Assembly: GCA_049287005.1 (NCBI GenBank)
Contig: JBAQEZ010000003.1
Span: 181,958 to 245,957, forward strand
Source: Candidatus Moraniibacteriota bacterium
GTDB taxonomy: Bacteria; Patescibacteriota; Minisyncoccia; Moranbacterales; UBA1568
DNA: 64,000 bases
Direction of reading: 5' to 3'
Numbering within the stretch: position 1 is the stretch's first letter; every line of letters starts with the position of its first letter. Under the pieces are notes generated by a model. It had not been told where the DNA came from. It ran no database searches and worked only from the letters and a program-made list of their open reading frames with translations. Below are positions 42,868 to 57,563 of this stretch, piece by piece. The position numbers were made by a program, and so were the translations under genes.

Positions 42868-43281
42868 ATGAGAAGTATGAAAATCAAAACATTATTAGGA
42901 GTCTCTGCCGTCTACATGGGACTGCTTGGACTCGGATTTTTATTGGTGCCGGGAATGATGAGTCTCGGGGCGGTTCCTGCGGGGGCATCTGCGGCGATGA
43001 TCGCCTACCTGCGTATCCCTGCCAGCCTGTTCATCGGCATAGCGGTTGTCAATTGGATGGTAAGGAAAGCGGAGCCCGATGCTGCGCTGCGAGTCATCGT
43101 TTTTGGCAACATGGTCGGTTTTGGTCTGACGGCTCTCCTGGAGGTGCTCAGCGCGTTCAGCGATAACCGTATCTCTACTTTTGTATTCGCGGCTATCAAT
43201 ATGTTTTTCGCGGTTGCTTTTCTTTTGGCGCGAGGGCAAGCGCAGCAAGCCAATCCTCAGGACCCCGGACATTTTGAGTAG
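42868..43281 (+). CDS. Small 4-TM membrane protein of unknown function
   Basis: 137 aa with four hydrophobic helices (LLGVSAVYMGLLGLGFLLV; LFIGIAVVNWMV; VIVFGNMVGFGLTALLEVL; FVFAAINMFFAVAFLL). Confidence 0.45.
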   Translation: MRSMKIKTLLGVSAVYMGLLGLGFLLVPGMMSLGAVPAGASAAMIAYLRIPASLFIGIAVVNWMVRKAEPDAALRVIVFGNMVGFGLTALLEVLSAFSDNRISTFVFAAINMFFAVAFLLARGQAQQANPQDPGHFE

Positions 43282-43483
43282 TCGTTGTTAGGCGCCTCTT
43301 CCCAGGTGACCCAAGAAAAACGTGCAATCGCTCGTGATTTATGGGTCATCTGCTCTGCCGGTCTTGTTCTGCGCGGGTACTCTGCGATTCACGGCAGGCG
43401 TACAACCTCGAGCATACGCTCGCGGGGGTTCAGGCAACGCGCTCTGCCAAAAAGCGAAACTCAGAAGGTAATCACGATACTGC

Positions 43484-45562
43484 ATGAAAAGGCACTCCTA
43501 TTACAATAATGATATTTGCGTTGTTGGCGTGGGGTGTGTTTTGCCTGGCGCGCGTAATCCTCGTGAATTTTGGAAGAACATCCTTGCAGAAAACTGTTCC
43601 ATAAAAGAAATGCCCGAAGAAAGGTTCAAAAAAAGCCTTTATTTCAGCAACGACAAAAACGAAAAGGACAAAGCGTATTCCAACCAGGCGGCGTTCATTG
43701 AAAATAGCTGGCTGGAAAAAATATGCGAAGATGCGGGCTTGGATTTCTCAAAAAACAATAGGCTGCAGGTCATGTCCGTTGAAGCGGCGCGACAAGCTCT
43801 GTCTTGTTTACGAGCCGGTTCCCTGAAAAAAAGAACGGAAAACACCTCCGTGTTTTTGGGATGCATGGAAACGGACGCCGGCTTTGCTTTAGAGAAATTT
43901 TTTTCTTATAATGAAACATCGCTGAAGAAATATATTGAAAAAAGCGGACTGAAGGATCAGCAGCGGATTTTTGGAGCGATCAAAAAACATTGCGGCGGAG
44001 GCGGGAGCACCGCCGAAAATGAAAAAATCGCGACGGTGCTGGCAATGTCAGCGGTCAGCGCGATCAAGAAACAATTCAGCGTGCGAGGAGAAGGTGTTCT
44101 CGTGGATGCCGCCTGCGCTTCGTCTTTGGCGGCTCTCGATACGGCAGCGAATGCCTTGAGAAACTATCAGACTGATTTCGCGATTACCGGAGGGGCGGAG
44201 AGCAATTTGAAACCCGATTCTTTCGTGTTATTCAGCAAGGTTGGCGCCTTATCGAGCGGCACCTGCCTGCCTTTCGACAAAAGAACCGACGGTCTGTCTC
44301 AGGGCGAGGGAGCGGTCATTTTCGCTCTACAAAGGATGGAAGACGCGGTGAAAGACAAGAACAAAATTTATGGCGTCATACAATCCATCGGCGGTTCCAG
44401 TGACGGCAGAGGGTCCAGTCTGTTTTCGCCGTCTTTGGGGGGTCAGCTTTTGGCTTATGAAAGAGCGTATCAAGGCCTCGATAAAGAGAGTGTCGATTAT
44501 ATCGAATGTCATGGCACTGGCACGAAATTGGGTGATTCGATGGAAGTGAAATCACTGAACAAATTTTTTCCTAGCGGGAAGATCCCTATCGGTTCGGTAA
44601 AATCACTGATCGGACACACCAAAGGAGCCGCCGGAGCCGCCGGACTTTTGAAATGTCTTTTGATGATGGAAAAGAAAACGATCCCGTCTTCGCGATATAT
44701 CCGATCCTCTATGGCGCCTCAAGAGGGGACAGTCTATACGAATAAAAAACCGATGCAGATTCGGCGCAAAAACAAGCCACTGCGTTTCGGAGTTTCTTCA
44801 TTCGGATTCGGCAATATCAATTACCATGTGGTGCTGGATGAATTCAAGGAGAACGGGGCAGTGATGCCGCCAGCGGTGAAGAAGCCGGCGGGTGAGCGCG
44901 AAATCGCGGTCATAGGAGAGGGTTCGGCGCGTTACGATGAAATCGATCCCAGTTTGTTCGTGGAAAAATTCAAGATTCCTCCGAAAAGCCTTCCGCACAC
45001 GGACAAAATACAATTATTGGCGCTGTCCGCCGTGCATGACGCTTTCGAAAAATCCAACATCAAAATCGATTCCTTGGATAAGGAAAAAGTGTCCGTTCTC
45101 TCCGCTTCCATCATCGGATTGGATGCGGCTTTGGATTTTGCTTATCGGATAATGACGTTTGAATTTCAGGAGGCTTTGAATTTTCTTGATGAAGAGTCGC
45201 TCAATGCGATGGTAACGTATAAGAACAGGTTTCCTGAAGTGACGGAAGATACCGGTCCCGGTATTCTGAACAATGTCATTGCGGGCAGGATCTGTAACAC
45301 GTTTGATTTCAAAGGGAAGAATTTCAATATTGATGCGGATCTCAATTCTTTTCCTGCAGCCTTGAAGATAGCTCTGGCAGAGTTTGCCAGATATGATGGC
45401 ATCATCGCGCTGGTGTTTTGCGAAGAAAAGCTCGATAAGAAAAGAATGCGCATTGCAAGGAAGCAGGCCGTATCCTGTATCTTGCTCTCGACGCTTGATG
45501 TGGCGAAACAAGAAAATTACCCGATTCGCAGGCTGATTAAAAGCGTACACTATCATGAATAA
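43484..45562 (+). CDS. Type I PKS-like beta-ketoacyl synthase with a C-terminal degenerate KS-like (chain-length-factor-type) half
   Basis: KS active-site Cys in VLVDAACASSLAALD, His in ECHGTGTKLGD and His in SLIGHTKGAAGAAG. The C-terminal 260 aa are KS-like but have Ser/Gln in place of the catalytic Cys (VLSASIIGL). Confidence 0.85.
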   Translation: MKRHSYYNNDICVVGVGCVLPGARNPREFWKNILAENCSIKEMPEERFKKSLYFSNDKNEKDKAYSNQAAFIENSWLEKICEDAGLDFSKNNRLQVMSVEAARQALSCLRAGSLKKRTENTSVFLGCMETDAGFALEKFFSYNETSLKKYIEKSGLKDQQRIFGAIKKHCGGGGSTAENEKIATVLAMSAVSAIKKQFSVRGEGVLVDAACASSLAALDTAANALRNYQTDFAITGGAESNLKPDSFVLFSKVGALSSGTCLPFDKRTDGLSQGEGAVIFALQRMEDAVKDKNKIYGVIQSIGGSSDGRGSSLFSPSLGGQLLAYERAYQGLDKESVDYIECHGTGTKLGDSMEVKSLNKFFPSGKIPIGSVKSLIGHTKGAAGAAGLLKCLLMMEKKTIPSSRYIRSSMAPQEGTVYTNKKPMQIRRKNKPLRFGVSSFGFGNINYHVVLDEFKENGAVMPPAVKKPAGEREIAVIGEGSARYDEIDPSLFVEKFKIPPKSLPHTDKIQLLALSAVHDAFEKSNIKIDSLDKEKVSVLSASIIGLDAALDFAYRIMTFEFQEALNFLDEESLNAMVTYKNRFPEVTEDTGPGILNNVIAGRICNTFDFKGKNFNIDADLNSFPAALKIALAEFARYDGIIALVFCEEKLDKKRMRIARKQAVSCILLSTLDVAKQENYPIRRLIKSVHYHE

Positions 45563-48500
45563 GAGCCAAGGACATTATTTCGGACGATACGATATTGTCG
45601 GGATCGCATATAGGGGCCCTGATTTTTCAAGACGGTGTTTTGTTTTTCCGGGGCAGGGATCGGCCTTTCCCGGGATGTGCAAAGATGAGTACCTCGCATT
45701 CAATATCATCCGAGAAAAATTTGCGCTGGCCGATGCGTTGGTGCAAAAATTTCACTTTCCCAAAATATCGGATTATATCTTACATCCTGACGGACTCAGC
45801 CAAGAAACGCTGCCGGCCATGGCGAATCTGGCTCTTTTTACTCTGGAGTCGGCCTTGTGTGATGTCCTGATTTCTTTGAAAGTTACTCCTGAGGTTATCA
45901 CCGGCCACAGTTTCGGTGAATACACGGCACTCGTGGCCTCGGGCATCCTCCCCTTTGAAGAAATGATCGCTATTATTTACCATCGAGATATGTTCTGTCC
46001 GCAGGCGCATGCTCTGGGTTTTCTGATAGCGGTGAACGCGGACGTCAAACAAGTGAAAACCATTCTGGGAACAAGGGAGTATCATATCAGCAATATCAAC
46101 AGTCCCAGACAGACTGTCATCGCGGTTGCCAAGGACGCCGTCGCTGCCGTCGCGCAGATATTTGAAAGCAAAAAAATAAAGCATAAAGTTTTATATAATG
46201 TGCCTCAGCCGTATCACTCCCCGTATTTGGAAGGATCCAAAAAGAAGATTAAAAAATATTTAAAAACCAAGCAATTTTCCTTCAGCAAGCCTAAAATCCC
46301 ATTTTTTTCCTCAGTTTTGAAGAAACTGATTGACGAAAATAATTTTAAAAAAGAAGATATAGACAAGATTCTGATCAACCAGATTACGACCCAAGTTGAT
46401 TTTATCAGTCAAAGCAAGTCGATATACGACCGCGGCTGCTCTTATTTTTTGGAAGTGGGTCCAAAAAAATTATTCGCCGTTTTTATCGATGACATTATGG
46501 CAGCGGATGCTAAGGAAGTAAAAACCGACTGCGCGCTTGGTGTGCTGCGCCAAGAGAAGCAAAATGATTTCAAACCAGTCAGTCTGAAGGGCCATAAACT
46601 GTTTACCCTGATCAGCCAGACCATCGGGAAAATCACGGGTTATGAAATCGAGAAAATATACCCCGAAGGCAGATTCCAGGAAGATTTGGGCATCGATTCC
46701 ATAAAAAGAGCCGATATCCTGCTGACGGTGTTTGATGAACTGAAGATCTTGCTGGGCGAGGATTTCAACACCTCGGAATTTAAAAGCATCAATGACGTCA
46801 TCGCGTACATCGAAAAGGCGAAGGAGGAGGGACGGACGAGGAAAGCCCTGTCCGTGGGTGCCGCTCTGGCACAGGAAAAGACACGCTTCAAAAGATATAT
46901 TTTTGTGCCGGTCGCAGAGTCTTTGCCGCAAAAGTATTTTTTGGACGCTTCTCGCAAGGATGGATATTTTCTACTGCCTCTTTCTGACATTGTGCGAAAG
47001 AGTGGGGATGCTTTGGAGCGGCTACGATCTTTTTGCGAGGCACTCGGGAAGAAAATGAGGAGACCCGACATCATCATCCTCGCCGATGGGATCCAGTTTG
47101 ATTTCGCTACGATGATGCTGATTTTCAAGTTCTTCAGGGAGTACGCGCGTTCGGCAGTCGAAGATGGGGTGAATGTGGTTCTTCTTTCCGCGGGTCGAGA
47201 TGCGCACCCCTATATCTATGGGCTGGCTTCTTTCCTGAAATCCCTGAAAAAAGAATTCCCCGGGATGTTTTTCAAGCACATCCATTATGACAGGATGGGC
47301 GCTGAGCGAGAGGCGCTGCGCGTCGCTTGCCAAGAAGCGCGGGAAACTGACGGTATGGATGTCGTGTATAAAAACGGAAAAAGATTTGTTTTGAAACCCA
47401 GGCTTGCGCAAGCAGGAAAGAAACCAAACTTGAATGAGAGCTCGGTGGTTGTGGCGATCGGCGGGGCAAAAGGCATCACTTTTTCGCTCATCAAGAACAT
47501 CTCACGAAAATACAAGCCGGTTCTCTATCTGGCTGGTAAAAGTCGGGAAGATGACAAGGTGGTGCGGGCTCATATCGAGGAGCTGAAGAAAGAGAATCCC
47601 AACATATATTATGCATCACTCGATGCCTGTGATATGAGATCTCTGGATAAGCTTTTTGCCAGCATAAAAAAGCAGCATAAAAAGATTGATCTGGTGATCA
47701 ACGGCGCGGGTACGGTCAAGATAGGATTCTTGAAAGAAAAAACTGATGAGGATATGGAGTCTGAATTCTATAACAAAGTCCTGCCCGCTTTTCATATTTT
47801 AAACCTCGCATCAAAATATAAGCCCAAGAGAATCATTCATTTTTCATCCATCATTTCAAGATACGGCAGCGCCGGCCAGAGCGTTTATACGGCAGCGAAT
47901 GAACTCGTGAGCGGATTAACCGCGGCCTATGCCACGGTTCTGAAAAAGTCCGGCACCAGAGCGTCTGTCGTTCATTGGCCGCCATGGGATAGCATAGGAA
48001 TGACCGGGAACCAAGGCGTGTCCCAAAAATTGAAAGAGGCCGGGGTTTCCTTGTTGGGCTCGAGGAAGGCGGATACATTATTTTTGTCCGACCTCTCTTC
48101 TCCCGGAGAAGGCGCGGTGTATTATCTGGATGAAGCGGACGACAGATTCTATTCCTTTGCCTTGAATAATCTGGAGCCATTTCGGTCTTTGATAGGCGAG
48201 ATAGCGGATCCCTTCAGTCTTTCGGCATCCAGGGCAGTTTTCCGTAAAATATTCGATTTGCAAAGCGATACGTATCTGAAAGATCATATGGTACGCGGCA
48301 CAAGCTATGTCCCGGCCGCGGTGGGAATAGGCATGTTCCTGTGTTTGGGGAAAATGTATGGGAAGCGATTTCCCGTGCTGAAGAATATCGCCATAAATAA
48401 TCCGATCATAGTGAAGGAGAGGCCGGCGGAGTGTTTGTTGGAGACCACGAGCAAAGATGGGCTTCATTTGTTCTCTATAAAATCGTATGTACCCCACTTC

Positions 48501-49013
48501 TCTGCCGAAGCGGCGTACCCAGAAGAAAAGAAGATACCCCCGCGGCATTTCGTGAAAAGAGGCAAGAAAATTGAAGGCAGCACCGTCTATGCCGATTATG
48601 CCTTGAAGAATAGTCTCTTTCTGGGGACGGTTTTCCAGTCCATAGAACGGATATGGATCGGGGGGAATAACGTGGCTCTGGCTGTTATCAATAACTCCGT
48701 CTTGCTTCCGGTGTTTGGCCTGAGCATGTATGATAGATTGATTCAATGGATCGACGCCTCTTTCCAGGCGCTGGGTGTCGCGGCGCTCAGACACGACGCC
48801 ATCCTGTTGCCGGTAGGCGTTGCCAGTCTTTCCTTTTTTCCCAACGCCGAAATTTCTCAGCGTGTGTATGCGATACCTTCGTCAGTCGTAGCTACCGACG
48901 CTGGTGTGCAGGGGGATGTGGCATTGGTCAACGAAAAAGGGGAAGTGATTCTTGATTTAGTCGGGATTTTCCTGAAGAAGACAGAAGATAATCAAATATC
49001 AAACGAAAAATGA
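45555..49013 (+). CDS. Multidomain PKS-like protein with acyltransferase, ACP, ketoreductase and dehydratase domains, in that order
   Basis: AT: FPGQGSAFPGM and GHSFGEY. ACP: EDLGIDSIKRADIL (phosphopantetheine attachment Ser). KR: VVVAIGGAKGITFSL Rossmann fold and YTAANELV. DH: H-x-x-x-G-x-x-x-x-P in DHMVRGTSYVPAA and a D-x-x-x-Q motif in WIDASFQAL. Overlaps the KS gene stop by 8 nt. Confidence 0.85.
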   Translation: MNKSQGHYFGRYDIVGIAYRGPDFSRRCFVFPGQGSAFPGMCKDEYLAFNIIREKFALADALVQKFHFPKISDYILHPDGLSQETLPAMANLALFTLESALCDVLISLKVTPEVITGHSFGEYTALVASGILPFEEMIAIIYHRDMFCPQAHALGFLIAVNADVKQVKTILGTREYHISNINSPRQTVIAVAKDAVAAVAQIFESKKIKHKVLYNVPQPYHSPYLEGSKKKIKKYLKTKQFSFSKPKIPFFSSVLKKLIDENNFKKEDIDKILINQITTQVDFISQSKSIYDRGCSYFLEVGPKKLFAVFIDDIMAADAKEVKTDCALGVLRQEKQNDFKPVSLKGHKLFTLISQTIGKITGYEIEKIYPEGRFQEDLGIDSIKRADILLTVFDELKILLGEDFNTSEFKSINDVIAYIEKAKEEGRTRKALSVGAALAQEKTRFKRYIFVPVAESLPQKYFLDASRKDGYFLLPLSDIVRKSGDALERLRSFCEALGKKMRRPDIIILADGIQFDFATMMLIFKFFREYARSAVEDGVNVVLLSAGRDAHPYIYGLASFLKSLKKEFPGMFFKHIHYDRMGAEREALRVACQEARETDGMDVVYKNGKRFVLKPRLAQAGKKPNLNESSVVVAIGGAKGITFSLIKNISRKYKPVLYLAGKSREDDKVVRAHIEELKKENPNIYYASLDACDMRSLDKLFASIKKQHKKIDLVINGAGTVKIGFLKEKTDEDMESEFYNKVLPAFHILNLASKYKPKRIIHFSSIISRYGSAGQSVYTAANELVSGLTAAYATVLKKSGTRASVVHWPPWDSIGMTGNQGVSQKLKEAGVSLLGSRKADTLFLSDLSSPGEGAVYYLDEADDRFYSFALNNLEPFRSLIGEIADPFSLSASRAVFRKIFDLQSDTYLKDHMVRGTSYVPAAVGIGMFLCLGKMYGKRFPVLKNIAINNPIIVKERPAECLLETTSKDGLHLFSIKSYVPHFSAEAAYPEEKKIPPRHFVKRGKKIEGSTVYADYALKNSLFLGTVFQSIERIWIGGNNVALAVINNSVLLPVFGLSMYDRLIQWIDASFQALGVAALRHDAILLPVGVASLSFFPNAEISQRVYAIPSSVVATDAGVQGDVALVNEKGEVILDLVGIFLKKTEDNQISNEK

Positions 49014-49636
49014 AGCATCCGAAAGACTTTCGTGGCCAAACCAGGCTCGCGACCCGCGTCGCTCGATCTCTGGCGCAGCCACAGGGACAGGCGCAAGCGG
49101 ATCTATGGGATATAGACCAGCAACGGTCAGTGGCGGATGTGTTGGTGTATGAGTTGACGGGGAAAAAAATGAGCCGTTCCCAAATGGGCAGACCCCGTAT
49201 CGGTACATCGGCGGACGTATCTCTCTCCCATAAGAATGACTTTGTTGCCGTGGCTACCGTTCCGGCGCCGTACAGGATCGGCATTGATGTGGAACATCTC
49301 GTGACCGGCTTGAACGCAGAACTTTTTTTCGGGCCGGCAATAACAAGCCGTGAGTTGCCTTTTTTCAAGACGTTTTGTGAAAAAAACAACTTTTCTTATT
49401 CTTCCGGAGTTGCCGTCTTCTGGTCCATCAAGGAATCCTTTTTTAAGTGTCTTGATTATGATTTCAAACCTGCTAAGATAAGCGTGCGGAGCATTTCAGG
49501 AAAAGGGAAAATCCGTTTTGATATGTCTGATGAAATAAAAACACTGATGGAGGGGAGAGGCTTGGCGCTGTGTTCGTCAAAGACGCTGTTGCGGGGCGAG
49601 CATATTTTTTCTCAAACAGTCATGAGAAAAATGTAA
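49010..49636 (+). CDS. 4'-phosphopantetheinyl transferase (Sfp-type)
   Basis: PPTase motifs G-x-D in RIGIDVEHL and W-x-x-KES-x-x-K in FWSIKESFFK. ATGA overlap with the upstream gene. Confidence 0.75.
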   Translation: MKHPKDFRGQTRLATRVARSLAQPQGQAQADLWDIDQQRSVADVLVYELTGKKMSRSQMGRPRIGTSADVSLSHKNDFVAVATVPAPYRIGIDVEHLVTGLNAELFFGPAITSRELPFFKTFCEKNNFSYSSGVAVFWSIKESFFKCLDYDFKPAKISVRSISGKGKIRFDMSDEIKTLMEGRGLALCSSKTLLRGEHIFSQTVMRKM

Positions 49637-49645: not shown

Positions 49646-50713
49646 GTGGACACATACCAATATCATATGAAGCATCAACAGGAGGCCCTGCAACGCTGGC
49701 AGACACTGGATATCATAAAAACCGTCGGGCTTTTGGGTGCGCTTTTTTTCCATGTTTTCGTCTGGTGGTTCGGAAAAAATTGGGGAGCAACAGGCGCCGC
49801 CTTCTATAGTTTCATCGGAGCACCCGTGTGGCTCATGCTTACTTTTTTGGTAGTCATCCATTTTCTTCTGTTGTCCGCGGGCGCCTCATTGTACTTTTAT
49901 CTGAAGAAATATCAGCCAACGCTCAAAACAATACTGCTTCGAGTAGTCCTGTTATTGTTACTGGGTGTCGTATTCGGATTGAATCTGCACCCTCTGGTGG
50001 TGTTTTGGAATGTTTTTATGCTGTATGCCGTTTCGGTCTTGACCATTTTTCTCCTGGATCGTTATGTCGGAAAGCGGGCGATTATGATGCTGACCGCGGC
50101 ATCTCTCCTCCTCACGCCTTTTTTGCGTTTCTTTTTGGGTACGATGGCTCCGCAGCATTATGCGTCGTACGTTCTTGTCGGTGACCCGGCGGGTATCGCA
50201 AGTTTTTACCCTTTTTTTCCATGGTTTTTTCTGATGGGCGCTGGATTCTTAACCAGTCATTTCTATCGCCAGTACCAGAAGGCAAAACTCCTTGGATATG
50301 GGTTGTTTGGCGGAGCGATAACTACATTGCTCGTCGTGCCCTTTTTGCGAATACCTGATTTTACCAATATTTTCGGCTTCACCTCTCAAATGTCGATAAG
50401 TTATGCCGTGCTCATGGCTTCCACTTTCATTTTTCTGGTCTCTTGGCTGGAGTTGCTTTTGCACAACATAAAACTTTCTCCGTATAACCCGGCTGTCGCT
50501 CTCGGCAGGCACATTTTGCCGGTGTATCTGACGACGGTTTTTATCACTCTGATCATGGTGCCTCTGATGAAACAATACGTACACTATAGAGACGGTACCC
50601 GTGTTTTTCTGATTCTTGAGATCATGACATTTCTCATCGCGTATCTGGTGGCGGCTCTGTTGACGTGCCGCGCCGTTAGACGGAGAGATCATCGCGCGGC
50701 CCCTTTTGCATAA
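49646..50713 (+). CDS. Integral membrane acyltransferase (acyltransferase-3/OafA/OpgC-like family)
   Basis: N-terminal family signature R-x-x-x-LD-x-x-K-x-x-x-x-x-x-V-x-x-x-H in QRWQTLDIIKTVGLLGALFFHVF. About 10 TMs. GTG start with a TAAGGT ribosome-binding site. Confidence 0.55.
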   Translation: MDTYQYHMKHQQEALQRWQTLDIIKTVGLLGALFFHVFVWWFGKNWGATGAAFYSFIGAPVWLMLTFLVVIHFLLLSAGASLYFYLKKYQPTLKTILLRVVLLLLLGVVFGLNLHPLVVFWNVFMLYAVSVLTIFLLDRYVGKRAIMMLTAASLLLTPFLRFFLGTMAPQHYASYVLVGDPAGIASFYPFFPWFFLMGAGFLTSHFYRQYQKAKLLGYGLFGGAITTLLVVPFLRIPDFTNIFGFTSQMSISYAVLMASTFIFLVSWLELLLHNIKLSPYNPAVALGRHILPVYLTTVFITLIMVPLMKQYVHYRDGTRVFLILEIMTFLIAYLVAALLTCRAVRRRDHRAAPFA

Positions 50714-50760
50714 TGGTTCGATTATGTTATTATAATCATATGAAAAATTAAACATATATC

Positions 50761-52959
50761 ATGAAAAATAAATTTTTTGGAGCGCTTTTTATTTTCGTTT
50801 TTATCACCATGCTCAGCGCGCCGCGCGCGGCTCAGGCGGGCAGTGTGGCTGATGCCGTAGGGGATGCCGTAGGGAATGGGATATCTATAGTCTCAGGGGT
50901 CGTTCAGGGAACGGTAAATTTGGTTACTGGCGAAAGTTTCAGCTCGGGCTATTGCGATGGTTTTAATTCTTTGGGCGGCACGGGCGATGGAGGCATTCTC
51001 AATCCGGGTAGTTGTGACGGTGGCGGTGGTGGTTCTTGCGTGGGCAACTACGGCCAATCCTGCGGCAGTTGCGGGGGTGTGATTCAGTGCGACGGTGCCT
51101 GTAGCGACACGAGCAACTCCGGCGCCAGCTGTTCATCGTGCAATGCGTGCGGGGCCTGCAGTGGAGGCAGTATTCAATGCAACGGAGCTTGCAGCGCCGG
51201 AGCTCCTGCTCCAGCGCAAACAGGAAGGACCGGGCATTCCTGCTCGGAGTGGGATGATCCGGGCAATGATCAATGTTACGCCGGTTCCGTAGATGAAGTT
51301 TTCTATTGTGATGGTTCCTGGAATTATGAAAATAACGGCTGTTATGGAGTAAGTTGTTGCGTTCCGTATGCGGGTTCCTCTTGTTCGGCCACTTCTTCTC
51401 CCAATGCCTGCGGTGACACCGACACAAACTATGGCAGCTACACCTGCGAGGGTGCCTGTACGGCGTCAGCGCCGAGTGCTCCTCCGATAACAGAAGTAGG
51501 GAGGACTACCTATGATTGCTCAACTTTCAATGATGCCAACAATTGTTATGCCGGCACCGTAGACGGGGTTGGGTTTTGCGATGGCTCATGGCAAGCCCAA
51601 AACAACAATTGTTACAATATATCCTGTGGGCCGGTATGCGTTCCGTATGCGGGTTCCTCTTGTTCGGAGACTTCTTCTCCCAATGCTTGCGGTGACACGA
51701 ATACCAGCAATGGCAGCTACGACTGCAATGGTGCCTGTACGGCCTCTACGCCTGTTCCTCCTGCCACTCCATGGTATGTGGGCGCCACCTGTTATTCTTC
51801 CACGAACTCCTGCGGGCAGTGGGACAGGGGAGCATACGATTGCAACGGTTCCTGCAGCGCCTCCACCCCTGACGAGCCTTGGTATGTGGGCGTCGGCTGC
51901 TCATCATCCGCGAACTCCTGCGGGCAGCGGAACTCAGGGACGTATGATTGCGGGGGCTTCTGCAGCGCCTCCACCCCGTCGGATAGCAGTTGTCCATCAT
52001 CTTGTGCTTCGAATGAAGGTCAGGCTTGCACCTCATCCGCGAACTCCTGCGGGGATACCAATGGAGGATCCTACGATTGCAACGGTTCCTGCAGCGCCTC
52101 CACCCCGGATGATCCATGGTATCTCGGCGTAGGCTGCTCATCATCCGCGAACTCCTGTGGACAGAGAAACAGCGGGACATATGATTGCAACGGTTCCTGC
52201 AGCGCCTCCACTCCGTCGGAGAGCTCCTGTTCTTGTGTTGCGAATAATTGCGCGGCGAGCACCTGTTCGAACGATACCTGTTGGAACGGATGCAGTACCG
52301 TGTGGGGCGATGTGTCCTGTATACCCGCACCCACTATCAATATCTTCAACGCCGCGCCTCTTTCTATCATGAGTGGAAACTCTTCAACCCTCACCTGGAC
52401 CACCTCCAATGCTTCATCCTGCTTCGCTTCCAATGGCTGGAGCGGCTGGAAAACCAATACGGGCGGCAATGAAACAGTCTGGCCCGCATCCACCACCACC
52501 TATGCTCTCGAATGTTGGAACAGTGACGGTGTCACAAGCGGCGTAGCGAGCAGGACCGTGACCGTGACCGCCGCGGTTCCTGCGCCCTCACTCACCTTCT
52601 TGGTCAGTTCGCCATCACTCAGTTCGGGGCAATCAGCCACGCTACAGTGGAACGCTGCGAATGCTGCGACCTGCACCGCGACTGGCGATTGGAGCGGAAC
52701 GAAAGCCACCGGCACACAAAGCGAGACACAATCCAATATCACCAGCTCCAAAACCTACTATCTGGAATGTTGGAACGGCGCGAGTGTTTCTACCGGCAAA
52801 AAGATGGCAACGGTGACATTGTTGGCCTGCGTGCCTGATTGCAGTGCCGCGAAAGCCGGTGCGGTCTGTGCCGGTCAGCCATACAGTGACGGTTGCAGCG
52901 GAACTTGCAATAATGCTGCGCGTCACTGCGATTACAACTGGAAAGAAGTGGCGCCGTGA
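50761..52959 (+). CDS. Secreted cysteine-rich tandem-repeat protein with two C-terminal Ig/Fn3-like domains
   Basis: Signal peptide MKNKFFGALFIFVFITMLSAPRAAQA. Repeated modules of about 35-40 aa such as PWYVG-x-GCSSSANSCGQRNSGTYDCNGSCSASTP, and CVPYAGSSCS-x-TSSPNACGDT modules. Two C-terminal domains of about 95 aa (LTWTTSNASSC ... YALECWN; LQWNAANAATC ... YYLECWN). Confidence 0.55.
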   Translation: MKNKFFGALFIFVFITMLSAPRAAQAGSVADAVGDAVGNGISIVSGVVQGTVNLVTGESFSSGYCDGFNSLGGTGDGGILNPGSCDGGGGGSCVGNYGQSCGSCGGVIQCDGACSDTSNSGASCSSCNACGACSGGSIQCNGACSAGAPAPAQTGRTGHSCSEWDDPGNDQCYAGSVDEVFYCDGSWNYENNGCYGVSCCVPYAGSSCSATSSPNACGDTDTNYGSYTCEGACTASAPSAPPITEVGRTTYDCSTFNDANNCYAGTVDGVGFCDGSWQAQNNNCYNISCGPVCVPYAGSSCSETSSPNACGDTNTSNGSYDCNGACTASTPVPPATPWYVGATCYSSTNSCGQWDRGAYDCNGSCSASTPDEPWYVGVGCSSSANSCGQRNSGTYDCGGFCSASTPSDSSCPSSCASNEGQACTSSANSCGDTNGGSYDCNGSCSASTPDDPWYLGVGCSSSANSCGQRNSGTYDCNGSCSASTPSESSCSCVANNCAASTCSNDTCWNGCSTVWGDVSCIPAPTINIFNAAPLSIMSGNSSTLTWTTSNASSCFASNGWSGWKTNTGGNETVWPASTTTYALECWNSDGVTSGVASRTVTVTAAVPAPSLTFLVSSPSLSSGQSATLQWNAANAATCTATGDWSGTKATGTQSETQSNITSSKTYYLECWNGASVSTGKKMATVTLLACVPDCSAAKAGAVCAGQPYSDGCSGTCNNAARHCDYNWKEVAP
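51740..52240 (+). repeat. Intragenic near-identical DNA tandem repeats encoding the Cys-rich modules
   Basis: Units such as GCTCATCATCCGCGAACTCCTG(C/T)GG ... TATGATTGCAACGGTTCCTGCAGCGCCTCCAC recur at about 51840, 51900, 52080 and 52140. Confidence 0.7.
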
Positions 52960-53048
52960 TACAGAGGAGAAGAGAAACGGCTTGTGCGAGACGCAAGGTG
53001 ATAGTATAATAAAAATATCCCATTAATTAAATAAACAGACATAAAAAT

Positions 53049-53351
53049 ATGTTGGAACAATCTCAGCGACCGGTGAAAGTTGTGTTACTTGTGGTATTGG
53101 CTATCGCTCTGATAGCGCTCGTCTCTGTGATTTTGGCGCAGAGGGGCATGTTCGGTAATCCGGCTCCTACTCCGCAGCCTGTTTCCAAAACGACGATCCC
53201 TGTGCCGACAGGAACTGCCACCGCTCCGGCTTCTACTGCTACTCCGGTTGTCCCGAAGCAACTCAAGGACTTACAAGATCAGGTGAACGCCGGCACGCTT
53301 TCTCCCGCAGAAGCCAAAAAACGGTTGGAAGCTCTCTCAGTACCCAAGTGA
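53049..53351 (+). CDS. Small membrane-anchored Pro/Thr-rich protein
   Basis: TM VVLLVVLAIALIALVSVILA followed by a PAPTPQPVSKTTIPVPTGTATAPASTATPVVP low-complexity linker. Confidence 0.35.
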   Translation: MLEQSQRPVKVVLLVVLAIALIALVSVILAQRGMFGNPAPTPQPVSKTTIPVPTGTATAPASTATPVVPKQLKDLQDQVNAGTLSPAEAKKRLEALSVPK

Positions 53352-53407
53352 CTTCCTCTCACGCTTCTTGTTGACGCCAAGAAGCAAGGAAGAGAAGCAG
53401 AGCAAGA

Positions 53408-53444
53408 CTGCCCCGCTGATAATCAGCGTGGCAGCTTTTTGTTT
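53408..53444 (+). terminator. Rho-independent terminator
   Basis: CTGCC-c-CGCTGA-taa-TCAGCG-t-GGCAG followed by CTTTTTGTTTT. Confidence 0.6.
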
Positions 53445-53510
53445 TAAAGGAGAGTCTTTTGAGGTATACTACAGAAAGACTTTCAAGACAGAGCCTCTAT
53501 CATTAAAGGA

Positions 53511-54461
53511 TTGGTACCTATGACGTGGGTGTTTGTAGCGTTGCTGGGATATTTTCTCAATTCCGGAGCGGCGATATTGGACAAGTATCTTCTGTCGGGA
53601 CCGATCAAGGGGCCGGCGGCGTATGCTTTTTTCGTTTCCTTGTTCAGCCTGTTCACGCTTCTTTTCATACCTTTCGGTTTCCAGTTTTTCGGTTGGGAAT
53701 CGACCGGAATTTTCTTGCTTTCCGGCATCTTGTTCCTGTACGGTCTGGTGGCGCTGTACACCGCCGTGCAAGGACAGGAAATCTCACGTATTTCGCCTTT
53801 GGTTGGCACGGTGGTTTCTCTGGTAGCTTTTGGGGCGGCAATCTTTCTTCCTCATGCTTTGGGAGAGACGTTCTTTACCGTGCGATATATGTTTGCGCTC
53901 ATGTTGCTGATCGGGGGCGGATTGCTTCTTTCGTTCGATCTGCCGCTCCGACAGGGCGAACGCATTTCCCGATTCGTATTTGTCGCGGGCTTGGCCATGG
54001 GAGGGTCGCTCCTCCTTTTGAAATACGGATACGGACAGGCGAATTTTATCAGCGGTTTGGTGTGGTCGCGCCTGGGTATGTTTCTGGCAGGATTGAGCCT
54101 TCTTTTTGTGCCGCAGTTCCGACGTCAGATTTTTGGTGATGCCAAGCAAGCGACTGGGTCATCCAGAACGGCCGTCCATACGGGCATCGTCTTCGTAGCC
54201 AACAAAGCGTGTGCGGGACTGGCCACCCTGCTCATCACGTATGCGACGTTTTTGGGGCCGCTCTCTTTCGTGCAGGCTCTGTCTGGCATGCAGTATGTCT
54301 TTCTTCTTCTGCTGGCGTTGCCGCTCTCTCTCCGTTTTCCGCGGATATTCGGTGAGCGGCTTTCTTTCTGGGACTGGTTCCAGAAAATATGCGCTATCGC
54401 GCTTATCGGTTTGGGATTATGGCTTTCTGCTACCGGCGGAGTGAAGTTGTTATTTATGTGA
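53511..54461 (+). CDS. Polytopic membrane protein (about 10 TM; DMT/EamA-like candidate)
   Basis: Ten hydrophobic helices arranged as two five-helix halves. No diagnostic motif recognised. Confidence 0.45.
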   Translation: MVPMTWVFVALLGYFLNSGAAILDKYLLSGPIKGPAAYAFFVSLFSLFTLLFIPFGFQFFGWESTGIFLLSGILFLYGLVALYTAVQGQEISRISPLVGTVVSLVAFGAAIFLPHALGETFFTVRYMFALMLLIGGGLLLSFDLPLRQGERISRFVFVAGLAMGGSLLLLKYGYGQANFISGLVWSRLGMFLAGLSLLFVPQFRRQIFGDAKQATGSSRTAVHTGIVFVANKACAGLATLLITYATFLGPLSFVQALSGMQYVFLLLLALPLSLRFPRIFGERLSFWDWFQKICAIALIGLGLWLSATGGVKLLFM

Positions 54462-54517
54462 TGTTACCTTTTTTAGATTCATGGGAGAAAAATTTGCAAT
54501 AATTTTTTTGTGAGAAA

Positions 54518-55534
54518 GTGCATATGTGGCATGTGTTGAAGATAATTGGTATCGTAGCATTGACAGTCGTCGCAGGCCTGTCCGCGGTATTTGGCTATTT
54601 CAATCTTGCCGGACCCGCTCCGCGTCAGGACGTGAAGTTGGGCATGACTTTTTCATCGCGCTACGCGACTGACCTGGGTCTTGATTGGAGAAAAACCTAT
54701 CTCGCGCTTCTCGATGAGGTGGGCGTGAAAAAACTCCGTCTGCCGGTCTATTGGGATCTCGTGGAAACAAGTCCGGGCGAATACCATTGGGGCGATCTTG
54801 ATTGGCAACTGGGAGAAGCAGAGAGGCATGGCGCCGATGTCATCCTCACTATCGGGCAAAGAGTGCCGCGCTGGCCGGAGTGCCATATTCCTGCTTGGGT
54901 GGATCAATCCGCGGATACCAGACAGGCCGCATTGCTGCATTTTATGGGGAAAACTGTCGAGCGTTACAAGAATAATAGAACAGTCATTACGTGGCAGGTA
55001 GAGAACGAACCGTTCTTGGTATTCTTCGGCGTGTGCCCGCCTTTGGACAGCGCTTTTTTAGATCAGGAGGTCGCTTTCGTGAAGGGTTTGGATCCTACTC
55101 GCCCAGTGCTGTTGACCGATAGTGGTGAGTTGTCATTGTGGATCAGCGCGGCCAAGCGCGGGGACATTTTTGGTACGACGATGTACCGGCATATTTGGAG
55201 CAGTAAATACGGATATATCACCTATCCGATCGGGCCGAATTTTTTTCGTGCCAAGGCGTGGTTGGTGCGTACTTTTACTCGGCAAAATAATCTCATGGTC
55301 ATCGAGCTCCAAGCGGAACCGTGGGCCTCCGGGTGGGTGGCAAATGTTTCGCTCGCGGAACAGTTCCGTACCATGGACGAAACGAAACTCAGAGAAAATG
55401 TCGAATATGCGAAGCGCGTCGGCTTTGGAGAAGTCTATCTGTGGGGCGGAGAATGGTGGTATTGGCTTAAGGTTGAGAAAGGCTATGGTGCCGTCTGGGA
55501 CGAAGGAAAAAAAATCTTTAGCGAACAACAGTAG
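54518..55534 (+). CDS. Membrane-anchored glycoside hydrolase, clan GH-A (GH5/cellulase-like TIM barrel)
   Basis: N-terminal TM. Conserved NEP acid/base motif in ITWQVENEP, and RLPVYW ... H-x-x-GDLDW features typical of GH-A barrels. Confidence 0.6.
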   Translation: MHMWHVLKIIGIVALTVVAGLSAVFGYFNLAGPAPRQDVKLGMTFSSRYATDLGLDWRKTYLALLDEVGVKKLRLPVYWDLVETSPGEYHWGDLDWQLGEAERHGADVILTIGQRVPRWPECHIPAWVDQSADTRQAALLHFMGKTVERYKNNRTVITWQVENEPFLVFFGVCPPLDSAFLDQEVAFVKGLDPTRPVLLTDSGELSLWISAAKRGDIFGTTMYRHIWSSKYGYITYPIGPNFFRAKAWLVRTFTRQNNLMVIELQAEPWASGWVANVSLAEQFRTMDETKLRENVEYAKRVGFGEVYLWGGEWWYWLKVEKGYGAVWDEGKKIFSEQQ

Positions 55535-55566: not shown

Positions 55567-56121
55567 ATGCAAAAAAGGAAAGAACTTATTCTCGTTATTC
55601 ACAATGTCCGAAGCGCTCTCAATGTCGGCGCGTTGTTCCGGACGGCAGATGGCGCAGGAGTCAAGCGTATTTTTCTCACCGGTTATACTCCGTGCCCGCA
55701 TCCCTTGGGAGAAAGCGCTCTCCCGCCGGCCTATCTGACACCGGCACAAAAATCACTAGCGAAGACGGCTCTGGGTGCCGAAAAAATCGTCTCTTGGAAA
55801 AAATCAGTATCGCCCGGTAGGGTGCTGGCCGAGCTGCGTCAAGCGGGTTTCGCCATCGTAGCCTTGGAACAACACGAGAAGAGCATCGATTACCGAGAGT
55901 ACGCGTCAGAAGCAGGCGTAGCGCTCGTGATCGGAAACGAAGTGCGCGGGCTGGATGCGAAAATTCTCAAGCAGTGCGATGTAATTTTGGAAATCCCGAT
56001 GCGCGGAGCAAAGAATTCGCTCAACGTCTCAGTCGCCGCCGGCATTGCTCTCTATCAAATAGGGGGTATAATGGAGGCAGGGTATCCTATAAAAATAAAA
56101 ACCGTATGCTCAAAAAAATAA
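55567..56121 (+). CDS. SpoU/TrmH-family RNA 2'-O-methyltransferase
   Basis: LILVIHNVRSALNVGALFRTADGAGV ... IGNEVRGLD ... LEIPMRGAKNSLNVSVAAGIALY (SPOUT knot motifs). Confidence 0.8.
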   Translation: MQKRKELILVIHNVRSALNVGALFRTADGAGVKRIFLTGYTPCPHPLGESALPPAYLTPAQKSLAKTALGAEKIVSWKKSVSPGRVLAELRQAGFAIVALEQHEKSIDYREYASEAGVALVIGNEVRGLDAKILKQCDVILEIPMRGAKNSLNVSVAAGIALYQIGGIMEAGYPIKIKTVCSKK

Positions 56122-57563
56122 ACCTGTTTGCCGTACTGGCGATTACTTTGGTAGTCGGAGGAGTGGTCGTGTGGGGAGGATATGGTGTCAAGTTTTTTAG
56201 CGGAGCTGTTTTTGCTGAGGACCGTGCTCTCGGCGACGGAGTACCGGCAGCGGATTCAGTCAAGAAGATTGACACGCCGAAAATGACCGATACGCGTTCA
56301 GAGACGACGGTGTCACTGAAACAAGAAGAAACACAGAAAGAAGCAAAAAAAGCAGAAGAGAAGCGTTCTTCAGCGGAAACCAGCGTCAAGAATGTGTCGG
56401 GATCTGCCGTATCTTCTTCGCAAGACACCAACAAGCCCCGCGTGCAGGAGAAAAAAGTAGAAGTGACCACCAAAACCGCCGATGCGACGAAGGTGGAATA
56501 TTATATTCAGCCGAAACAAGAGAGCGTGGTGGCGTCGTCCGTAGCAAAGAAGCAGCTTCCTCAGTCTGCCTTACGGGTGGAGACACAGGAGACGAAAGCG
56601 GCGGAGGTAAAAACCACCGCGGCAGAGACGGTAGCGACAAAAAATTATCTGGGAACAGCCGCCAATGACAATCCTGGAGAGTGGAATCTGACTATTGACA
56701 CTGAAAAACGCTTGCCGAATGGCGAATATCAGATTGTTCCGAAGCTCTATCAGAAAGATGGCACGATCGTGAATGGCAAGGGGACGGCGCTTACCGTGAA
56801 TGATCCGAGGGAAACGTTATCTCCGGAGGAAAAGGTGAAATTCGAGTATTCCGAGGCAGACACGGACGGCGATGGTGTTCCGAATAAAGAGGAAATCCGT
56901 TTCGGCACCAATCCGACGCTCGCTGATTCCGACGGAGACGGTTTCCTGGATGGGGACGAAATAAAAAAAGGTTTTAACCCGCTGAAATTTTCGTCTGGCG
57001 ACAAGAGTGACAAGGTGGTGTTCGAATCTCCCAAGACGGTCGCGGCAACAACGGACAACGCCGCCGCATCGCCGGCAACAGAAAAACGGACGGTGGATGA
57101 CAGTCGTTTCACGGTCAACGCGGTCGCGATGGCCGATATTCCCGCTACCGGAGGTACACAGAAAAAGGCGGCGCGTTTTTCCGGGAAGGCTCTGCCGAAT
57201 ATTTTTGTCACGCTGTACATCTTCAGCGACCCGATTATCGTAACGGTCAAGACGGATGCGGAGGGAAATTGGACGTATGATCTGGATAAAGAGTTGCCGG
57301 ACGGAGACCATGAAGTCTACGTGGCGGTAACGGATAATGTCGGGAAAATCACCTCTCAGAGTCGGGCTTTGCCATTCGTGAAGACGGCTGACGCTATCGT
57401 GATGCAGCCACTCACCGCTGCTACGGCAGGAGAAATACAGAAGAACACCTCGCCGCTGGAGCGGTCACGAACAGAAATTATGGTGAGTGCCGCTATCATC
57501 ATTGCCAGCTTTATCGGGGTTGCCCTGGTGCTGATCGGCCGCCGATCCTCGTTTATTCGCTAA
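56106..57563 (+). CDS. Surface-anchored protein with calcium-binding (thrombospondin type 3-like) Asp repeats, an Ig-like domain, and TM segments at both termini
   Basis: Start MLKKINLFAVLAITLVVGGVVVW. DTDGDGVPNKEE ... DSDGDGFLDGDE repeats. C-terminal TM IMVSAAIIIASFIGVALVLIG followed by RRSSFIR. Confidence 0.5.
   Translation: MLKKINLFAVLAITLVVGGVVVWGGYGVKFFSGAVFAEDRALGDGVPAADSVKKIDTPKMTDTRSETTVSLKQEETQKEAKKAEEKRSSAETSVKNVSGSAVSSSQDTNKPRVQEKKVEVTTKTADATKVEYYIQPKQESVVASSVAKKQLPQSALRVETQETKAAEVKTTAAETVATKNYLGTAANDNPGEWNLTIDTEKRLPNGEYQIVPKLYQKDGTIVNGKGTALTVNDPRETLSPEEKVKFEYSEADTDGDGVPNKEEIRFGTNPTLADSDGDGFLDGDEIKKGFNPLKFSSGDKSDKVVFESPKTVAATTDNAAASPATEKRTVDDSRFTVNAVAMADIPATGGTQKKAARFSGKALPNIFVTLYIFSDPIIVTVKTDAEGNWTYDLDKELPDGDHEVYVAVTDNVGKITSQSRALPFVKTADAIVMQPLTAATAGEIQKNTSPLERSRTEIMVSAAIIIASFIGVALVLIGRRSSFIR

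What the first reader, a model, noticed from the sequence alone, without database searches (positions are those of the whole stretch)
50761..52959. Large secreted Cys-rich tandem-repeat protein with DNA-level repeat instability potential
The 732-aa secreted protein is built from at least 8 cysteine-knot-like modules (4 Cys per 35-40 aa; CSSSANSCGQRNSGTYDCNGSCSASTP). It ends in two Ig/Fn3-like domains and a final Cys-rich cap. Several modules are nearly identical at the nucleotide level (51.8-52.2 kb), so repeat number could vary by slipped-strand or recombination events. I cannot place the module type in a known family. It sits directly downstream of the PKS-like operon, which could be coincidental.
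Basis: seen in the sequence. Interest (0 to 1): 0.55.

Follow-up and report, generated by a model that had tools for sequence, protein, structure and literature searches.

The report
Disulfide-module surface protein of CPR bacterium
This is a real 732-residue secreted protein of a Moranbacteria (candidate phyla radiation) bacterium, made of eight copies of an uncatalogued 36-residue four-cysteine module, two Ig-like domains and a strictly conserved C-terminal tag; it is most likely a cell-surface stalk or adhesin, and its DNA repeats are diverged, not near-identical.

Summary
The ORF (50761-52959, +, 732 aa) is real. It has a Sec-type signal peptide, 68 Cys, eight copies of a C-x6-9-C-G-x8-11-C-x-G-x-C module, two Ig-like beta-sandwiches and a Cys-rich C-terminal cap.

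The claim of near-identity at the DNA level is wrong. Repeat copies are 78-84% identical, the longest exact repeat is 35 nt, dS between copies is 0.29-0.56 and dN/dS is 0.23-0.51. These are old duplications under purifying selection, not an assembly collapse. A near-identical pair of orthologue contigs does differ by exactly one 684-nt repeat period, so module number changes in this family.

The module matches no Pfam, NCBIfam or PDB entry and no EGF, chitin-binding or TSP1 fold. It is nonetheless a clear family: 844 instances in 180 proteins, and 580 of 1.84 billion cluster representatives, mostly Patescibacteria. AlphaFold confidence is pLDDT 92.

SufB places the window in Ca. Moranbacteria. 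The PKS adjacency is not conserved. The cap ends in an invariant CDYNWKEVAP shared by otherwise unrelated secreted proteins.

Best reading: a disulfide-stabilised surface stalk or adhesin with a variable middle. The architecture is shown; the function is inferred. Interest is moderate.

The parts
50705..50733 (+). Promoter-like site TTTGCA-17-TATTAT with TG extension, in the AT-rich 47-nt gap upstream of the ORF
   Evidence: Consensus scan and sequence. Suggests the gene has its own promoter. Consensus match only.
50761..50838 (+). Signal peptide, aa 1-26 (MKNKFFGALFIFVFITMLSAPRAAQA, AQA|G)
   Evidence: Read from the translation. Orthologues have an N-terminal TM or signal anchor at the same place.
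50839..51036 (+). Gly/Ser/Val-rich N-terminal region, aa 27-92. Includes a degenerate copy of the family N-terminal motif (ES.SS..C.GF.SL.G.G.GGIL.PGSC, aa 58-86).
   Evidence: Alignment A5 shows conserved E58 S59 S61 S62 F68 S70 L71 G75 G77 G78 P82 S84 C85. AF2 pLDDT <50.
51043..51213 (+). Modules 1 and 2 (aa 95-118 and 117-151), degenerate 4-Cys modules
   Evidence: HMM domain E 4e-4 and 1e-7. AF2 low confidence.
51214..51363 (+). Cys-rich insert A (aa 152-201), first half of the 93-aa super-repeat
   Evidence: The 279-nt-spaced direct repeat D2 lies in the module part of the super-repeat (51358-51483 and 51637-51762). It overlaps insert A by only 6 nt and does not cover inserts A and B. AF2 pLDDT <50. 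A short counterpart is present in P0003.
51364..51480 (+). Module 3 (aa 202-240)
   Evidence: HMM E 2.5e-9. pLDDT ~73.
51481..51642 (+). Cys-rich insert B (aa 241-294), counterpart of insert A in the second super-repeat
51643..51756 (+). Module 4 (aa 295-332)
   Evidence: HMM E 4.9e-11. pLDDT ~90.
51769..51984 (+). Modules 5 and 6 (aa 337-372 and 373-408), canonical 36-aa modules starting PWYVG
   Evidence: HMM E 4e-16 and 6e-17. AF2 pLDDT 91-97.
51985..52008 (+). Linker SSCPSSCA with two extra Cys (aa 409-416)
   Evidence: pLDDT dips to 65.
52009..52221 (+). Modules 7 and 8 (aa 417-451 and 452-487)
   Evidence: HMM E 1.6e-16 and 4e-18. AF2 pLDDT 85-98.
52222..52323 (+). Cys-rich linker (aa 488-521, 7 Cys)
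   Evidence: AF2 pLDDT <50.
52324..52578 (+). Ig-like beta-sandwich 1 (aa 522-606), Cys554/Cys585 pair
   Evidence: AF2 strands 525-605, pLDDT ~90. Foldseek hits to tandem Ig domains.
52579..52827 (+). Ig-like beta-sandwich 2 (aa 607-689), Cys638/Cys670 pair
   Evidence: AF2 strands 610-689, pLDDT ~75. Foldseek.
52828..52959 (+). C-terminal 6-Cys cap ending in the invariant C-D-Y-N-W-K-E-V-A-P, then the stop codon
   Evidence: Alignment A8. The same ending occurs on at least 13 otherwise different proteins. AF2 pLDDT <50.
53049..53351 (+). Adjacent 100-aa single-TM protein, conserved next to the orthologue. Possible partner.
   Evidence: 44% identity, E 2e-22, to the gene adjacent to the orthologue in L001 and L017. 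Absent next to the L030 counterpart.

Best explanation
The gene encodes a Sec-exported, disulfide-stabilised, modular cell-surface protein of a Candidatus Moranbacteria (CPR/Patescibacteria) bacterium.

Shown:
- A signal peptide is followed by eight copies of a small, independently folding 36-residue four-Cys module, joined by short Pro-rich linkers like beads on a string.
- Two Ig-like domains and a 6-Cys cap follow. The last nine residues of the cap (CDYNWKEVAP... strictly DYNWKEVAP after the Cys) are invariant across otherwise divergent secreted proteins.

Inferred:
- The module array acts as a protease- and shear-resistant spacer. It may also be a multivalent binding surface. It projects the Ig-like domains and cap away from the cell.
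- The conserved N- and C-terminal motifs are handling or anchoring signals common to a family whose middle parts are swapped and change in module number.
- The biological role is attachment to, or interaction with, another cell or surface, as expected for an episymbiotic CPR bacterium.

The gene is transcribed independently of the upstream PKS genes.
For: Architecture:
- ORF and composition.
- Eight modules.
- AF2 on a 27-sequence alignment of the four-module segment gives pLDDT 92.1 with low pTM 0.47. This means confident small domains with undefined mutual orientation.
- The full-length model shows two beta-sandwiches that match tandem Ig domains of titin, Fc receptors and bacterial adhesins or hooks (SiiE, intimin, GhpA).

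Family:
- 844 module instances in 180 proteins, 2-21 copies each. Conservation among the 678 near-complete instances: C8 100%, S10 92%, N13 99%, C15 100%, G16 92%, G21 97%, C25 97%, G27 84%, C29 100%, A31 81%, P34 92%.
- 580 of 1.84e9 cluster representatives match at E<=1e-3.
- The genomes carrying it are mostly Paceibacterota, Kaiserbacteria, Minisyncoccia, Parcubacteria and Yanofskybacteria.
- Partner domains are extracellular adhesin-type: CARDB, PKD, SdrD_B, Big, TSP_1 and PG_binding_1.

Disulfides rather than free thiols:
- The mature protein has an even Cys count (68).
- Each Ig-like domain carries one Cys pair.
- The same window encodes a TM-anchored DsbA/MdbA-like CPFC protein and a Trx-CcdA-like fusion.
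- MdbA-like oxidoreductases are reported as CPR-enriched (bioRxiv 10.1101/335083).

Selection and host:
- dN/dS between internal copies is 0.23-0.51.
- SufB is 90% identical to Ca. Moranbacteria.

Variable middle, conserved ends:
- In L030 the flanking genes are 63% and 70% identical. The counterpart protein shares only one module and the C-terminal end.
- Orthologue alleles carry 3-9 modules.

Independence from the PKS:
- A promoter-like site lies in the gap.
- No PKS genes occur in 30 related loci.
Against: - No experiment or annotated homologue shows adhesion. Every homologue is 'hypothetical' or named only after an accessory domain.
Metal coordination by the four Cys is therefore not excluded.
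- The protein has no recognisable anchor: no LPXTG, no C-terminal TM, no lipobox. Surface retention is an assumption that rests on the unexplained C-terminal tag.
- About 40% of the protein is modelled with pLDDT <50: aa 8-198, 242-293, 493-518 and 693-732.
Confidence: 0.55

Rival explanations
1. Metal-binding array. Each module uses its four Cys to coordinate a metal ion (Zn, Fe or Cu) instead of forming two disulfides, making the protein an extracellular metal store, scavenger or redox protein.
For: - Four invariant Cys per module, with a C-x3-C and an N-x-C-G knuckle-like motif.
- A weak, sub-threshold but recurrent hit of 20 of 27 segments to the SPRTN zinc-binding domain model (best E 0.0013, 12 residues only).
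- The module co-occurs with the 'putative metal-binding motif' PF11617 in 4 of 65 relatives.
- 19 of 678 modules tolerate loss of Cys3 alone.
Against: - The protein is Sec-exported.
- The Ig-like domains carry classical Cys pairs, and the genome encodes DsbA/MdbA-like machinery.
- The SPRTN_ZBD score (14 bits) is far below the cut-off of 27.
- PF11617 hits lie in separate regions of those proteins, not on the module.
- Modules lacking Cys3 often have an extra Cys just upstream (P0004 sequence), as expected for disulfide rewiring.
Confidence: 0.1
2. Structural envelope component. The protein is a building block of the cell envelope, an S-layer-associated lattice or a pilus-associated fibre, not an adhesin. 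The C-terminal tag would mediate self-assembly.
For: - The terminal residues are strictly conserved on many paralog-like proteins.
- The tag P-x-F-x-E-F follows directly on the last beta-strand of an Ig-like domain in many relatives. This is compatible with strand insertion or docking.
- A conserved small TM neighbour exists.
Against: - The family is sparse (580 representatives of 1.84e9) and not universal in CPR.
- Architectures are highly variable, and the locus is hypervariable between relatives. This is more typical of interaction proteins than of core envelope parts.
Confidence: 0.2
3. Contingency locus. As the first reader proposed, the gene changes module number frequently by slipped-strand or homologous recombination, giving phase or antigenic variation within a population.
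For: - The orthologues in L001 and L017 differ by exactly one 684-nt repeat period, with 98-99.8% identical flanks.
- Alleles with 3-9 modules exist.
- In the window, a 35-nt exact repeat lies 237 nt apart.
Against: - In the window gene the repeats are only 78-84% identical, with dS 0.29-0.56. Recombination should therefore be rare.
- The orthologue difference could be short-read assembly collapse of a 92% repeat.
Confidence: 0.12
4. The repeat region is an assembly artefact, or the ORF is not a real gene.
For: Repetitive, compositionally biased DNA creates long alternative-frame ORFs on both strands, for example 51569-52132 (+) and 51746-52330 (-).
Against: - The copies are diverged and therefore assemble unambiguously.
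- The frame is supported by homologues at E down to 3e-91, by dN/dS <1 and by confident folds.
Confidence: 0.03
5. The protein is functionally tied to the upstream PKS-like genes, for example by binding or exporting their product.
For: Same strand, 47 nt downstream of a membrane protein that follows KS, AT-KR-DH and PPTase genes.
Against: - No PKS gene lies near any of 30 related loci.
- In L030, synteny is with the downstream genes (a membrane protein and a GH-like protein), not the upstream ones.
- A promoter-like site lies in the gap.
Confidence: 0.03

Closest known systems
Thrombospondin type-1 repeat (TSR; Pfam PF00090 TSP_1 and PF19030)
   Same: Small, extracellular and Cys-rich, used in tandem arrays. 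It shares a C-S-x-x-C-G-like motif. Genuine TSP1 domains occur in the same proteins as the module (P0023, P0038, P0054), and the orthologues' cap is CSVACGGGTQTRSC.
   Different: A TSR is ~55 aa with 6 Cys and W-x-x-W / R-x-R layers. The module is 36 aa with 4 Cys and different spacing. There is no Pfam hit, hhalign probability is 0.3%, and no structural match was found.
EGF-like and hevein/chitin-binding type-1 domains
   Same: 30-45-aa disulfide-rich extracellular modules that are often tandemly repeated.
Modular bacterial surface adhesins and fibres built from tandem Ig-like domains (SiiE, intimin, SdrD B-repeats, Aureispira GhpA)
   Same: Secreted and elongated, with tandem small beta domains. 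The two C-terminal domains match these structurally. Relatives carry SdrD_B, CARDB, PKD and Big domains.
   Different: There is no LPXTG, beta-barrel or T1SS anchor. The stalk is made of 4-Cys mini-domains rather than Ig repeats. The host is a CPR bacterium.
Uncurated family of Patescibacteria 'hypothetical proteins' carrying the same module (e.g. P0001-P0010; 580 cluster representatives)
   Same: They share the module signature. The closest relatives (P0001, P0003, P0005, P0010; 40% identity) have the same overall plan, including Ig-like domains and the DYNWKEVAP end.
   Different: The window protein has a cleavable-looking signal peptide instead of a TM anchor. It has two extra 50-aa Cys-rich inserts and a non-TSP1 cap. 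It is itself absent from the public protein collection.

Membership tests
Thrombospondin type-1 repeat (PF00090) | Match to the Pfam TSP_1 or TSP1_ADAMTS model above the gathering score | tested here: not met
   No hit for the whole protein at E<=10, nor for 27 four-module segments.
Thrombospondin type-1 repeat (PF00090) | ~55 aa, six Cys, W-x-x-W and R-x-R layered core | tested here: not met
   The module is 36 aa with four Cys, at most one Trp and no conserved Arg. hhalign against bacterial TSP1 domains gives probability 0.3%.
Thrombospondin type-1 repeat (PF00090) | Three-stranded elongated TSR fold | tested here: inconclusive
EGF-like domain | Six Cys in the C1-C3, C2-C4, C5-C6 pattern; match to EGF models or folds | tested here: not met
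   Four Cys per module. No Pfam or PDB match.
Chitin-binding type 1 (hevein, CBM18) | Eight Cys in 30-43 aa with conserved aromatic sugar-binding residues; model match | tested here: not met
   Four Cys. The only semi-conserved aromatic residue is Tyr4 (56%). No Pfam or PDB match.
Ig-like beta-sandwich (aa 522-689) | Seven- to nine-stranded sandwich that matches solved Ig-like domains | tested here: met
Patescibacterial 36-aa four-Cys module family (uncurated; defined here) | Signature Y-G-x-x-C-x-S-x-x-N-x-C-G-x4-G-x3-C-x-G-x-C-S-A-x-x-P and a significant match to the family HMM | tested here: met
   Eight domain hits. Four of them have E 4e-16 to 4e-18 and all invariant positions.
DYNWKEVAP-terminated cap family (uncurated; defined here) | ~45-aa cap with 6 Cys that ends the protein in C-D-Y-N-W-K-E-V-A-P | tested here: met
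   Alignment A8 has invariant C2, C15, C24, C35 and D-Y-N-W-K-E-x-A-P. The stop codon follows directly.
Sortase, exosortase or other known C-terminal sorting signals (LPXTG, PEP-CTERM, etc.) | Motif followed by a TM helix and a basic tail | tested here: not met
   The protein ends at the motif with no TM segment. No NCBIfam sorting-domain model hits.
Contingency / phase-variable repeat locus | Long, (near-)identical tandem DNA repeats, and length heterogeneity in a population | tested here: not met
   Repeat identity is 78-84% and the longest exact repeat is 35 nt. Population heterogeneity is not testable without reads. The orthologue pair shows a one-period difference.

The most novel reading that the evidence does not exclude
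The invariant C-terminal end (C-D-Y-N-W-K-E-V-A-P-COOH, and the related P-x-F-x-E-F-COOH), together with the conserved N-terminal motif (SSSE.GF.SLSP.G..GG.I.PASCE), would mark a previously undescribed, CPR-specific system for sorting, anchoring or assembling surface proteins. Its cargo would be interchangeable, copy-number-variable stalks of a new disulfide mini-domain, used by these episymbionts to contact host cells.
Probability: 0.2. Interest if true: 0.65.

Novelty: new variant of a known kind. Interest (0 to 1): 0.35.

Why it matters
- **Little is known about CPR surface proteins.** CPR/Patescibacteria are thought to live attached to other cells, yet few of their surface proteins have a described fold or function.
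- **The module could be curated.** It is confidently foldable (pLDDT 92), strongly conserved and has no entry in Pfam, NCBIfam or the PDB. It could become a new domain family, which would improve annotation of hundreds of 'hypothetical' CPR proteins.
- **The terminal tag is a concrete lead.** The invariant C-terminal tag on otherwise unrelated secreted proteins points to how cells without an outer membrane or classical anchors retain or assemble surface proteins.
- **The significance is limited.** There is no evidence for function. The kind of protein (a modular Cys-rich adhesin-like protein) is familiar. The feature that drew attention, DNA-level instability, does not hold for this gene.

Tried and rejected
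1. Pfam and NCBIfam on the whole protein gave nothing, apart from DUF3869 at E 0.39.
2. Pfam at E<=10 on 27 four-module segments gave only sub-threshold SPRTN_ZBD over 12 residues. I rejected this as compositional.
3. PDB sequence-profile searches with the four-module and single-module profiles gave nothing meaningful. The Ig region alone also gave nothing.
5. hhalign gave module vs TSP1 0.3%, module vs cap 0.8% and cap vs TSP1 0.4%. There is no detectable relationship.
6. An exact look-up showed the window protein is not in the collection.
7. A genome-contig scan with the whole protein found no close relative. It worked with the smaller A3. In A3 I mistyped two residues of one helper sequence. 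That sequence served only to generate search patterns, and the hits were confirmed by tblastn against the genuine window segment.
8. A search with the 59-aa C-terminal segment returned no candidates, so the breadth of the tag could not be measured that way.
9. Literature searches found no description of the module or the tag.
10. No other ORF in the window ends in the tag.
11. Disulfide connectivity could not be derived.
Full report
**1. Observation**

The ORF exists exactly as stated: 50761..52959 on the + strand, ATG start, 732 aa.
- The N-terminus, MKNKFFGALFIFVFITMLSAPRAAQA|GS, has the basic, hydrophobic and A-x-A layout of a Sec signal peptide. This is read from the sequence; no predictor was available.
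- The protein has 68 Cys (9.3%), all in the mature part, and is rich in S, G, A, T and N.
- A regular expression and then an iterated HMM find eight copies of a C-x6-9-C-G-x8-11-C-x-G-x-C module.
- The copies lie at aa 95-118, 117-151, 202-240, 295-332, 337-372, 373-408, 417-451 and 452-487, with domain E-values from 4e-4 to 4e-18.
- Modules 5-8 are canonical 36-aa units. Modules 3-4 each sit behind a ~50-aa Cys-rich insert inside a 93-aa super-repeat. Modules 1-2 are degenerate.

**2. The DNA-level claim does not hold**

- Tandem Repeats Finder reports one array, 51772-51977, period 108, at 78% matches.
- The two long direct repeats are 82% identical (192 nt, 237-nt spacing) and 84% identical (126 nt, 279-nt spacing).
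- The best module pair is 83% identical in DNA but 91% identical in protein. The longest exact repeat is 35 nt, at 51835 and 52072.
- Nei-Gojobori estimates between repeat copies give dS 0.29-0.56 and dN/dS 0.23-0.51.
- These are old duplications kept by purifying selection. Copies this diverged assemble unambiguously, so a collapsed-assembly artefact is unlikely, and frequent slippage or recombination is not expected in this gene.

**3. Module number does change in the family**

- The closest relatives, P0001, P0003, P0005, P0010 and P0014, are about 40% identical to the window protein and have the same plan. P0001, P0005 and P0014 are 94-97% identical to P0003 (P0010 is 81%) outside whole-module indels, and carry 3-9 modules.
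- Contigs L001 and L017 are 99.8% identical over 5.9 kb upstream and 98.1% identical downstream of the gene.
- Their genes differ by exactly 684 nt. That is the spacing of a 300-nt, 92%-identical direct repeat in L001.
- This is either a genuine repeat-mediated deletion or duplication, or a short-read collapse. Reads would decide.

**4. The module**

- Neither the whole protein nor 27 four-module segments match any Pfam or NCBIfam model. The only recurrent signal is a 12-residue, sub-threshold match to SPRTN_ZBD.
- Profile searches of PDB sequences are empty.
- AlphaFold2 on a 27-sequence alignment of aa 337-487 gives mean pLDDT 92.1 and pTM 0.47. Each module has two short strands plus a bridge, so these are confident mini-domains with undefined mutual orientation.
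- hhalign between the module profile and the bacterial TSP1 domains found in the same protein family gives probability 0.3%.
- Across 678 near-complete instances the signature is P-x-x-Y-G-x-x-C-x-S-x-x-N-x-C-G-x-T-N-x-G-T-I-x-C-x-G-x-C-S-A-x-x-P.
- C8, N13, C15 and C29 are at least 99% conserved. S10, G16, G21, C25 and P34 are at least 92% conserved.
- In total there are 844 instances in 180 proteins, with 2-21 copies per protein.
- An exhaustive HMM search finds 580 of 1.84 billion cluster representatives at E<=1e-3, and 288 at E<=1e-10.
- Species-representative genomes that carry the module are mostly Patescibacteria, with isolated Polyangiales and other hits.
- Partner domains are extracellular: CARDB, PKD, SdrD_B, CarboxypepD_reg, Big, TSP_1, MopE-like, phospholipase C and PG_binding_1.

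**5. The rest of the protein**

- The full-length model has mean pLDDT 63.8. It shows two beta-sandwiches, aa 525-605 (pLDDT ~90) and aa 610-689 (~75), each with one Cys pair.
- The C-terminal cap is a ~45-aa six-Cys segment ending in C-D-Y-N-W-K-E-V-A-P followed by the stop codon.
- The same ending, preceded by D-x-C-G-x4-C-x-G-x-R-x-C, closes at least 13 otherwise different secreted proteins in metagenomes. Some have Fn3-like or other middles and no module at all.
- Of 184 module proteins, 18 end in this type of tag. Another 39 end in a P-x-F-x-E-F type tag directly after the last Ig strand.
- A conserved motif also follows the N-terminal signal or anchor: SSSE.GF.SLSP.G..GG.I.PASCE. It is degenerate in the window protein, at aa 58-86.
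- No known sorting-signal model matches, and no TM segment follows the tag.

**6. Context and host**

- SufB in the window is 90% identical to Candidatus Moranbacteria proteins. The other genes are ordinary chromosomal genes.
- Upstream lie KS, AT-KR-DH, PPTase and a membrane protein.
- None of 30 related loci has PKS genes, and the 47-nt AT-rich gap holds a promoter-like site. The PKS adjacency looks coincidental.
- In contig L030 the downstream genes are conserved: a membrane protein at 63% identity and a GH-like protein at 70%.
- The protein in the corresponding upstream position in L030 is only 336 aa. It shares just one module and the C-terminal end. The locus is therefore hypervariable relative to its flanks.
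- A 100-aa single-TM protein next to the gene (53049-53351) is 44% identical to the gene next to the orthologue in L001 and L017.
- The window also encodes a TM-anchored DsbA/MdbA-like protein with a CPFC motif, and a Trx-CcdA-like fusion.
- MdbA-like oxidoreductases are reported as enriched in CPR (bioRxiv 10.1101/335083). This supports disulfide formation in exported proteins.

**7. Interpretation**

Shown: a Sec-exported, modular, Cys-rich protein with eight small independently folded modules, two Ig-like domains and a family-specific terminal cap. It is under purifying selection and belongs to a sparse family that is mostly patescibacterial.

Inferred:
- The modules are disulfide-stabilised and form an extended stalk or multivalent surface.
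- The conserved ends are handling or anchoring signals.
- The role is cell-surface interaction or adhesion, in line with the episymbiotic lifestyle generally ascribed to CPR bacteria. That last point is my own knowledge and was not tested here.

Rivals:
- metal-binding Cys4 sites;
- a structural envelope or fibre subunit;
- a true contingency locus;
- an assembly artefact;
- a functional link to the PKS genes.

**8. Verdict**

The feature is real and the architecture largely confirmed, but the instability claim is overstated. The module and the tag are uncurated and have no solved relative, which makes this a new variant within the familiar class of modular bacterial surface proteins. Interest is moderate (0.35). 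The more novel possibility is a CPR-specific C-terminal sorting or assembly tag with swappable stalks. The evidence does not exclude it, but it is unproven.

Noticed in passing
window 52930-52959; also L020, L021, L023-L030 and P0080, P0131: An invariant protein ending, C-D-Y-N-W-K-E-V-A-P-stop, closes at least 13 otherwise different secreted proteins. A related P-x-F-x-E-F-stop ending is found on 39 of 184 module proteins. There is no TM segment after it, no NCBIfam or Pfam model, and no paper containing the string. It may be an undescribed sorting or assembly tag.
   Followed up: partly
window 50932-51018 (aa 58-86); P0003, P0023, L029 and L030 proteins: A conserved motif sits right after the N-terminal signal or anchor (SSSE.GF.SLSP.G..GG.I.PASCE). 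It is shared by proteins with either type of C-terminal tag and is degenerate in the window protein.
   Followed up: partly
window 53049-53351: A 100-aa single-TM protein with a Pro/Thr-rich linker and a conserved C-terminal helix (KDL.DQ..AGT..P.EA.K.LEA). It is adjacent to the Cys-rich gene here and 44% identical (E 2e-22) to the gene next to the orthologue in L001 and L017. The order is inverted between the two loci. It is absent next to the L030 counterpart.
   Followed up: partly
window 40480-49636: A type-I-PKS-like gene set sits in a Candidatus Moranbacteria genome: AMP-ligase (minus strand), KS, AT-KR-DH and a Sfp-type PPTase. To my knowledge secondary-metabolite-type synthases are unusual in CPR bacteria with reduced genomes. 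No ACP domain was seen among the Pfam hits of these four genes.
   Followed up: no
window 11749-14672: A cluster for extracytoplasmic thiol-disulfide chemistry: a Ferric_reduct-like TM protein, a secreted thioredoxin-like (CAHC) domain fused to a CcdA/DsbD-like membrane domain, and a TM-anchored DsbA/MdbA-like protein with a CPFC motif.
   Followed up: partly
L030 289-3432 versus window 50761-55534: The downstream membrane protein and GH-like gene are 63% and 70% identical between the two contigs. The surface-protein gene in front of them is replaced by a 336-aa protein that shares only one module and the terminal tag. The slot is hypervariable.
   Followed up: partly
L001 6452-6751 / 7136-7435 versus L017: The orthologous gene differs by exactly 684 nt, one repeat period, between two contigs with 98-99.8% identical flanks. 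This is either real module loss or gain, or an assembly collapse.
   Followed up: yes
window 147-3692 and 55974-57563: Two further large secreted-type proteins have Ig-like domains (Big_13, Ig_Rha78A_N, CHB_HEX_C_1; and Big_13 with bacterial TSP3 repeats). Neither carries the four-Cys module or the C-terminal tag.
   Followed up: no
window 14796-16334: The exonuclease VII large subunit carries an N-terminal HRDC domain, an unusual fusion.
   Followed up: no
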